NCBI GenBank assembly: GCA_964016885.1
Contig: OZ024741.1
Location: 234,980,001-235,044,000, forward strand
DNA: 64,000 bases
Direction of reading: 5' to 3'
DNA from: Eledone cirrhosa
Taxonomy: Eukaryota
This document shows positions 14,162 through 14,903 of the stretch, in pieces. Under the pieces are notes generated by a model. It saw only the letters and a program-made list of their open reading frames with translations. It did no database searches and was not told where the DNA came from. A program made the position numbers and the translations under genes. Each line of letters begins with the position of its first letter. Position 1 is the stretch's first letter.

Positions 14162-14903
14162 TATGAAAATTAGAGTTAAAACTCAATTGGAACCCTGTAA
14201 CTATTAAGCTCAAAGTATAAATACTGAGCCGATTAATAATATATAGTAAGAAACACAGTAAACCGTGTGTCAAACACACTCAGGGCGAAACAGATTAGGG
14301 ATAATCTGTCCGAGAGATATAATGGTTATTGAGGCGGGTTGTATATTTTATCATTCTGTCTGCTTCTTGGTTAAATATTTCAAACAAATGTGGTTTTTCA
14401 ACCCTTGTAATTTTAGACACACGGTTTACTGTGTTTCTTACTATATATTATTAATCGGCTCAGTATTTATACTTTGAGCTTAATAGTTACAGGGTTCCAA
14501 TTGAGTTTTAACTCTAATTTTCATATATATTTCTGCTCCCTCACAAGTTGAGCTTATTAAGTTGTGTGTGTTGGACTGTTATTTCTATTCAATACACGCT
14601 TACCACGTTTGACTAGCGGCGCACGAGGTGACAAATTCATCTTTCTGTGTGAACGTTGGCAAATAGTGTTTGTGGCATTTAATCAGATTCTCTCGCTGAT
14701 GAAGCCCATGATTATCTGTTACAAACACACTCAGGGCGAAACAGATTAGGGATAATCTGTCCGAGAGATATAATGGTTATTGAGGCGGTTTGTATATTTT
14801 ATCATTCTGTCTGCTTCTTGGTTAAATATTTCAAACAAATGTGGTTTTTCAACCCTTGTAATTTTAGACACACGGTTTACTGTGTTTCTTACTATATATT
14901 ATA
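14162..14903 (+). mobile_element. Non-coding hammerhead element: inverted stub plus ~1.4 tandem units (451-bp period)
   Basis: 14271-14450 repeats at 14722-14901; 14162-14269 is the inverse of 14418-14527. Confidence 0.85.
14689..14768 (+). ncRNA. Complete canonical type-I hammerhead ribozyme; predicted cleavage after GUC at 14761
   Basis: UCUCUCG-CUGAUGA-A-GCCC..GGGC-GAAA-CAGAUUA-ggga-UAAUCUG-UC-CGAGAGA; all three stems pair perfectly. Confidence 0.92.

What the first reader, a model, noticed from the sequence alone, without database searches (positions are those of the whole stretch)
14162..14903. Perfect hammerhead in a 451-bp non-coding tandem unit, with a possible built-in off-switch
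Seen: a canonical hammerhead at 14689-14768, whose 3' part recurs 451 bp upstream. The unit has no meaningful ORF and contains the bulged hairpin (14536-14554). Loop II holds GAUUAUCUGUU: AUCUGUU can pair with AACAGAU (overlapping the catalytic GAAA) and GAUUAUC with GAUAAUC of stem III. Established: metazoan non-LTR retrozymes are tandem hammerhead units that yield circular RNAs. Inference: a retrozyme-like monomer whose cleavage may be conformationally regulated.
Basis: partly seen in the sequence, partly recalled or inferred. Interest (0 to 1): 0.72.

Follow-up and report, generated by a model that had tools for sequence, protein, structure and literature searches.

The report
Penelope-type hammerhead retrozyme, leader-paired loop
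This is one of hundreds of copies of a roughly 450-base non-coding repeat with a self-cutting RNA motif, found in TA microsatellites and likely pasted there by a borrowed Penelope-type retrotransposon enzyme; it is a known kind of animal element, and its conserved extra helix is predicted to tune when the ribozyme cuts.

Summary
14158-14902 is one insertion in (TA)n: an inverted 114-bp arm plus 1.4 tandem 451-bp units holding one complete type I hammerhead (predicted cut 14761/14762). The core is not 'perfect': it has the extra nucleotide between A9 and G10.1 typical of Penelope-like (PLE) hammerheads. The genome holds at least 408 exact core matches in four or more subfamilies (about 70-100% identity), with arrays up to 7 units; no sampled copy belongs to a coding element. 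Copies end at two fixed sites, +141 and +220 after the cut, and 55 of 71 two-armed insertions use one of each: the PLE 'tail' signature. No copy found starts at the cut, so uncut or circular RNA was likely the template. Loop II's much stronger partner is the upstream leader (up to 17 bp, conserved, no covariation): most likely an activating pseudoknot, possibly also a lock. New member of animal non-LTR retrozymes. The scan noted the same end pattern before in other families. No RNA data.

The parts
14126..14157 (.). left (TA)n target tract with G interruptions (period 16)
14158..14271 (-). inverted, 5'-truncated second arm (exact reverse complement of 14416-14529); its outer end is terminus T2 (+220)
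14271..14310 (+). 3' half of the upstream hammerhead (end of loop II, stem II 3' strand, GAAA, stem III); 5' half absent; inversion junction at 14271 with 1-4 nt of overlap
14311..14761 (+). one complete 451-nt unit from cut site to cut site (predicted monomer; 36% GC; circular fold z -4.8)
14392..14498 (+). conserved tail-domain fold: closing stem with two hairpins flanking T1; one-sided changes only, no double changes
14440..14452 (+). internal TA-like motif T1 (+141 after the cut), first preferred 3' end of insertions and frequent 5' junction
14452..14530 (+). 79-nt 'tail' between T1 and T2 (T2 motif 14522-14530)
14666..14685 (+). conserved leader complementary to loop II (outer 8+4 bp to 14717-28; inner 5-6 bp to 14709-14); the inner part can instead extend stem I with 14776-79
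14689..14768 (+). type I hammerhead with extra nucleotide 14703, 26-nt loop II and 8-bp stem III; predicted cut 14761/14762
14762..14902 (+). partial next unit ending at T1
14903..14947 (.). right (TA)n target tract with the same period-16 interruptions

Best explanation
This is a young copy of a non-coding, hammerhead-bearing repeat family found in TA microsatellites with two fixed 3' ends, likely a non-autonomous Penelope-like element (animal retrozyme) copied in trans from an uncut or circular RNA. Shown: family, arrays, two ends, their pairing in two-armed insertions, no starts at the cut site, conservation of ribozyme and leader. Inferred steps: (1) arrays are transcribed and cut by the hammerhead into about 450-nt monomers that are ligated into circles; (2) a PLE RT-GIY-YIG protein cuts both strands in (TA)n and primes one cDNA at T1 and the other at T2, each running back across the ribozyme site for a variable distance, after which the two truncated cDNAs are joined head to head (here T2 arm left, T1 arm right); (3) the leader pairs with loop II first during transcription; its outer 8-12 bp then likely serve as the stem I-stem II pseudoknot of the active ribozyme while the inner segment swaps to extend stem I, and the fully zipped helix, which strains stem II, may keep the template RNA from cutting. 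The helper family is not identified; a very young EN+ PLE of this genome is the leading candidate.
For: Family: 1845 first-look candidates, 40 scored, top copies 94-100% identical; 221, 408 and 521 exact pattern matches with 0 in reversed controls. Of 139 distinct insertions from 156 loci: 194 of 210 3' ends at T1 or T2, 164 of those 194 scored as abutting TA; 72 of 139 inverted; of 71 with two 3' ends 55 are T1+T2, 4 T1+T1, 0 T2+T2, 12 other (55 of 59 against 0.5, p 1.7e-12). These are the PLE features in PMC8557442 (passages) and the two RT start sites and both-strand extension in PMC11167929 (parts 1-2 of 4). An autonomous PLE here shows the same layout: ends at +164 and +223/224 after its own hammerhead in 13 of 15 listed copies, one of each in L070, L122 and L124; it has 12,853 candidates and all 150 scored are 99-100% identical in protein. 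Template not cut: 1 of 213 arm 5' ends within -3..+4 of the cut; 331 genomic sites keep the upstream bases and none of 7 exceptions starts at the cut. Extra 9/10.1 nucleotide is a PLE-hammerhead trait (PMC4209133, parts 1-2 of 4). Leader 14666-73 and 14680-84, loop II and 14776-79 have no differing column between subfamilies A, B and C (131 distinct sequences), while neighbours 14656-65 and 14685-88 differ in 5 of 10 and 3 of 4 columns; the same holds by eye in subfamily D at about 70% identity. Active fold plus pseudoknot stacking is about -43 kcal/mol before a pseudoknot penalty, against -26 to -28 for the bare locked fold. Such pseudoknots occur in about 40% of hammerheads and can form before the rest (PMC3088659 passages).
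Against: No RNA evidence of transcription, cleavage or circles was obtained. No helix shows covariation above shuffles: support is conservation and wobble-type changes, which are also the commonest mutations. 102 of 139 insertions, this one included, hold a single complete core, so most cannot release a monomer by two ordinary cuts. Only one of nine Xenopus retrozyme dimers cleaved in vitro (10.64898/2026.07.22.740005), and PAc used uncut RNA as template, so circles are not required. The unit has no significant similarity to the candidate helper's terminal region (31-157 of 200 shuffles as good; blastn best E 0.54). Direct 5' junctions join it to three different PLE groups and to other small repeats, so they name no partner. 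The invariant UC at 14715-16 is not explained by the leader helix. Loci were chosen by best hit and by hammerhead patterns, not at random, and near-identical duplicated loci may be counted separately.
Confidence: 0.7

Rival explanations
1. Same element, but the leader:loop II helix is mainly an inhibitory lock that keeps the ribozyme off in precursor and circle until a protein or refolding opens it, as in plant retrozymes and viroids.
For: Pseudoknot-free folding gives the leader helix probability 0.99 or more and stems I and II 0.01 or less in 4 of 4 circular monomers; it forms before stem II is complete in growing-chain snapshots; both inner and outer parts are conserved, more than a pseudoknot needs; templates were uncut.
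Against: ViennaRNA cannot model pseudoknots, so that probability is biased; adding the outer helix to the active fold is competitive; in local folds of two older copies the helix has probability only 0.03 and 0.23.
Confidence: 0.3
2. No circles: master tandem arrays yield long uncut linear transcripts that are copied directly, and the hammerhead only trims ends or acts late with protein help.
For: PAc inserts from uncut RNA and its hammerhead needs protein; array L066 has four units sharing a broken stem II in an ABAB pattern, as expected from an uncut transcript or DNA-level duplication; median insertion is 1.1 units.
Against: The core and a stable 8-bp stem III are invariant across about 30% divergence; six complete units of L063 are identical and intact; circles are shown for coral, mussel and axolotl retrozymes (PMC7229834 parts 2-4 of 6).
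Confidence: 0.3
3. One reading: loop II invades GAAA/stem III to turn the ribozyme off.
For: The 7-bp pairing with GAAA/stem III 5' strand is kept in 97.6% of cells and would explain the invariant UC at 14715-16.
Against: 5.3 and 9 kcal/mol above the active fold; probability below 1e-6 with the leader in this copy and at most 0.003 in three other copies; 58 of 1000 shuffles match it; the second pairing is broken at two pairs in 12 and 17 of 23 sequences.
Confidence: 0.1
4. The unit is only the 5'-truncated terminal repeat of a coding PLE.
For: It has every PLE end signature, and retrozymes are proposed to derive from PLE terminal repeats; only part of the family was sampled.
Against: Of 178 distinct T2 motifs, 82 run into TA and 61 into the next unit by script; the other 35, read by eye, are 21 variant units and 14 short TA-like runs into unrelated flanks. 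Arrays are head-to-tail without a frame; no frame is attached in 30 loci of the oldest subfamily; the PLE ends inspected carry different hammerheads.
Confidence: 0.07

Closest known systems
Animal non-LTR retrozymes (PMC7229834; bioRxiv 10.64898/2026.07.22.740005)
   Same: Non-coding tandem unit of 451-472 bp, GC 36%, type I hammerhead in each unit, mostly monomers with a few arrays, structured predicted circle, co-occurrence with active PLEs.
   Different: Unit at the upper end of the 150-450 bp range; long 8-bp stem III; 26-nt loop II with a leader partner; predicted circle blocks the ribozyme, which that paper reports only for some mussel circles; expression and circles untested here.
Penelope-like elements and their non-autonomous derivatives (PMC8557442: partial tandems, inverted arm, tail, (TA)n bias, MRC1; PMC11167929: PAc)
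   Same: (TA)n targets, 5' truncation, inverted second arm, tail at one end only, two fixed ends downstream of the hammerhead cut, extra 9/10.1 nucleotide.
   Different: No frame; tail 79 nt against 30-40 nt in the papers (60 nt in the autonomous PLE of this genome); no sequence link to an autonomous family found.
Hammerheads with a stem I-stem II pseudoknot (PMC3088659, including the human C10orf118 type I ribozyme)
   Same: Sequence 5' of stem I pairs with loop II.
   Different: The helices in the passages read are 4-6 bp; here 8-12 bp plus an inner 5 bp with an alternative partner; no compensatory changes; untested.
Plant LTR retrozymes and hammerhead viroids (as described in PMC7229834)
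   Same: Ribozyme predicted to be blocked by a complementary segment in the circle.
   Different: Type I not type III; no LTR, PBS or PPT; PLE-type integration.

Membership tests
Type I hammerhead ribozyme | Conserved core CUGANGA, GAAA, UH with G10.1-C11.1 and three stems, stem I open | tested here: met
   extra 9/10.1 nucleotide as in PLE hammerheads; below Rfam gathering score
Type I hammerhead ribozyme | Self-cleavage at the predicted site | not testable with these tools
   needs in vitro transcription
Animal non-LTR retrozyme | Short low-GC tandem unit with a type I hammerhead per unit | tested here: met
   arrays of up to 7 units, 8 of 139 insertions with 2 or more units on one arm; this copy has 1.4 units and one complete core
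Animal non-LTR retrozyme | No protein coding, no LTR | tested here: met
   sampled copies only
Animal non-LTR retrozyme | Expressed as linear and circular monomer RNA | not testable with these tools
   no RNA holder listed
Non-autonomous Penelope-like element | Partial tandem, inverted 5'-truncated arm, tail at one end, (TA)n target | tested here: met
Non-autonomous Penelope-like element | 3' similarity to an autonomous PLE family | tested here: inconclusive
   none to the most active family; ends of three other PLE types only inspected; most families not examined
Autonomous Penelope-like element | RT plus GIY-YIG frame between the repeats | tested here: not met
Pseudoknotted hammerhead | Stem I-side sequence pairs with loop II, shown by covariation or rescue | tested here: inconclusive
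   complementarity beyond chance and conserved but no covariation

The most novel reading that the evidence does not exclude
An animal retrozyme with a built-in two-state ribozyme: one leader segment toggles between extending stem I (on; 12-bp pseudoknot) and zipping the whole of loop II (off), kept across about 30% divergence. This would answer the question left open in PMC7229834 of how animal retrozyme circles avoid re-cutting, and would link a silent circle to two-site priming by a PLE dimer.
Probability: 0.25. Interest if true: 0.62.

Novelty: new member of a known kind. Interest (0 to 1): 0.38.

Why it matters
It adds genomic support, from integration footprints rather than phylogeny, for the proposal that animal retrozymes are moved by Penelope-like enzymes, and it gives a small natural substrate with two mapped start sites for testing two-armed PLE insertion. 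The conserved leader:loop II helix is a cheap, direct test of how such a ribozyme is kept silent in the template yet preserved by selection. The class itself is known, and the scan has noted the same end pattern in other families.

Tried and rejected
RNA evidence: no RNA holder listed; four runs of unknown kind from one study, contigs only, were laid and show subfamily variants but nothing on expression, ends or circles. Rfam at gathering score found only U6 in the window. Helper search: a head-to-head join without TA to a young EN+ PLE (L061) first suggested the partner, but similar direct joins occur with Hydra-like (L132, L126) and Poseidon-like (L126) sequence and with small repeats (L030, L039, L046, L165); target-site deletion explains them equally, so they were rejected as proof. 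A shared 11-mer at the same distance from the cut in that PLE and subfamily A did not give a significant alignment and differs in older subfamilies. Covariation was sought in three regions and not found, also after adding subfamily D, whose leader change is a wobble compatible with both partners. In one search only 4 of 6 copies given were parsed. The 0.99 'locked' probability was not taken at face value because the program excludes pseudoknots; the penalty needed (roughly 7-12 kcal/mol) is recalled, and the geometric arguments are my inference, not a computation. Literature searches listed no paper on this family or on cephalopod retrozymes; subscription papers and supplements (the preprint's tables, the hammerhead figures of PMC7229834) were not seen and may hold it or a similar leader helix. 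Clade labels for neighbouring PLEs rest on motifs in PMC8557442 passages and recall, not on a tree.

Full report
Observation. The window comes from a 3.0-Gb, microsatellite-rich animal genome. At 14689-14768 the sequence folds as a type I hammerhead with the cut predicted at 14761/14762. It is not the textbook core: one extra base (14703) lies between A9 and G10.1, loop II is 26 nt and stem III is 8 bp, and Rfam does not call it. 14271-14451 repeats at 14722-14902 with one mismatch, and 14158-14271 is an exact inverted copy of 14416-14529. The whole block lies between two TA tracts with the same period-16 interruptions. The unit has no ATG frame above 51 aa. Only the downstream hammerhead is complete.

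Family. A DNA search of the own genome gave 1845 candidates, of which 40 were scored; the best full-length copies are 94-100% identical. Exact patterns gave 221, 408 and 521 matches and none in reversed controls. At least four subfamilies exist: A (451-468 bp), B (about 472 bp, 83-87% to A), C (about 80%) and D (about 70%). The extra core base is A in most A and B copies and U in C and D. An unpaired base at this place is a general trait of PLE hammerheads (PMC4209133, parts 1-2 of 4). Arrays reach 7.3 units (L063; six complete units identical) and 5.6 units (L066; ABAB pattern with a shared stem II lesion), but the median insertion is 1.1 units.

Integration footprint. In 139 distinct insertions from 156 loci, 194 of 210 3' ends fall at two internal TA-like motifs, T1 (+141 after the cut) and T2 (+220), and 164 of these were scored as abutting TA. 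72 insertions carry an inverted arm. Of 71 with two 3' ends, 55 pair T1 with T2, 4 are T1+T1, none is T2+T2 and 12 have another end. The window copy is T2 left, T1 right. This is the PLE pattern of partial tandems, inverted arm and a tail at one end only (PMC8557442 passages), and it matches the two internal RT start sites and both-strand extension of PAc in vitro (PMC11167929, parts 1-2 of 4). An abundant, very young autonomous PLE in the same genome (1281-aa frame with RT and GIY-YIG; 12,853 candidates; all 150 scored 99-100% identical) ends at +164 and +224 after its own, different hammerhead, one of each in three two-armed loci. The sample was chosen by best hits and hammerhead patterns, so the counts are not random-sample estimates.

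Not a coding element. After T2 the sequence runs into TA or into the next unit (178 motifs: 82 and 61 by script; 35 read by eye as 21 variant units and 14 short TA-like runs). No frame is attached in 30 loci of the oldest subfamily. The unit is not similar to the young PLE's ends. Direct 5' joins to three PLE groups and to other small repeats exist and can equally be template switches or target deletions. The helper is therefore inferred by class, not identified.

Template. If cut linear RNA were copied, arms would stop at the cut. One of 213 arm 5' ends lies within -3..+4 of it. Genome-wide, 331 sites keep the upstream bases and none of 7 exceptions starts at the cut (sites preceded by a chance C were not counted). 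So the template was a circle or an uncut multimer. Yet the catalytic core is invariant across subfamilies.

The switch. Forced folds cost 5.3 and 9 kcal/mol (probabilities 0.0012 and 1.6e-6; with the leader 9e-7 and 1e-9). The best loop II/stem III duplex is matched by 58 of 1000 shuffled loops, whereas the duplex with the leader 14666-14685 is matched by none. In 131 distinct sequences the leader segments that face loop II, loop II itself and 14776-79 have no differing column between subfamilies A, B and C, while the bases next to them change. Pseudoknot-free folding puts 4 of 4 circular monomers in the leader-paired, inactive fold, but that program cannot combine the helix with the ribozyme. 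Adding the outer 12 bp to the active fold, with the inner leader segment extending stem I, gives about -43 kcal/mol before a pseudoknot penalty, against -26 to -28 for the bare locked fold. By my geometric inference the outer helix would stack on stem II up to the height of the extended stem I, whereas all 17 bp together would strain stem II. Pseudoknots of this kind are common and activating (PMC3088659 passages). I therefore favour an activating pseudoknot with a possible zipped off-state. PMC7229834 (parts 2-4 of 6) states that most animal retrozyme circles leave the ribozyme free to fold and that their silencing is unexplained, which is where a confirmed lock would matter.

Comparison and verdict. 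It works like, and on every genomic criterion tested is, an animal non-LTR retrozyme, a class proposed to be non-autonomous PLEs (10.64898/2026.07.22.740005, parts 1-3 of 5; only one of nine dimers cleaved there). Expression, cleavage and circles are untested. Searches listed no paper on this family, and the scan holds no look-alike sequence, but earlier notes report the same two-armed T1/T2 pattern for other hammerhead repeats, in this genome too; my count preceded that look-up. None of the listed notes mentions a leader:loop II helix in a retrozyme. New member of a known kind; interest 0.38.

Noticed in passing
L122:2752-6594 (+), L123-L125, L061: Very young, abundant EN+ PLE with a 1281-aa frame, a minimal hammerhead and two fixed ends (+164, +224); 150 of 150 scored copies 99-100% identical in protein. 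A good candidate for biochemistry.
   Followed up: partly
L063:800-2440 (-): A second hammerhead tandem family (about 480-bp period, long stem-loop II) directly beside the 7-unit array.
   Followed up: no
L040, L188, L189, L228, L233, L236, L238: A common short repeat of this genome (SINE-like, label recalled) sits at the T1 motif inside several older copies.
   Followed up: no
L039:300-1450, L046:1580-3049: Other tandem or inverted non-coding repeats with half or permuted hammerhead-like cores, joined directly to this family's 5' end.
   Followed up: no
L065 about 2700-3100 (-), L052, L055, L064, L094: Several further hammerhead families with long helix or loop II, one at the end of a Hydra-like frame.
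   Followed up: no
window 14271-14317 with 14689-14707: The orphan upstream 3' half could in principle pair with the downstream 5' half as a permuted hammerhead, allowing a cut at 14310/14311 in this 1.4-mer; the inverted arm would form 114 bp of double strand in a read-through RNA. Inference only.
   Followed up: no
window 8393-8496 (-): U6 snRNA match lacking a proper 5' hairpin and abutting (TA)n, probably a retrocopy.
   Followed up: no
window 7110-8004: Inverted, truncated relative (48-60% identity) of the young PLE's RT-EN region.
   Followed up: no
window 15496-16136, 17359-19275, 10558-11200; 44021 (-): Other small inverted or tandem insertions in (TA)n with the same look, and one more hammerhead-like motif.
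   Followed up: no
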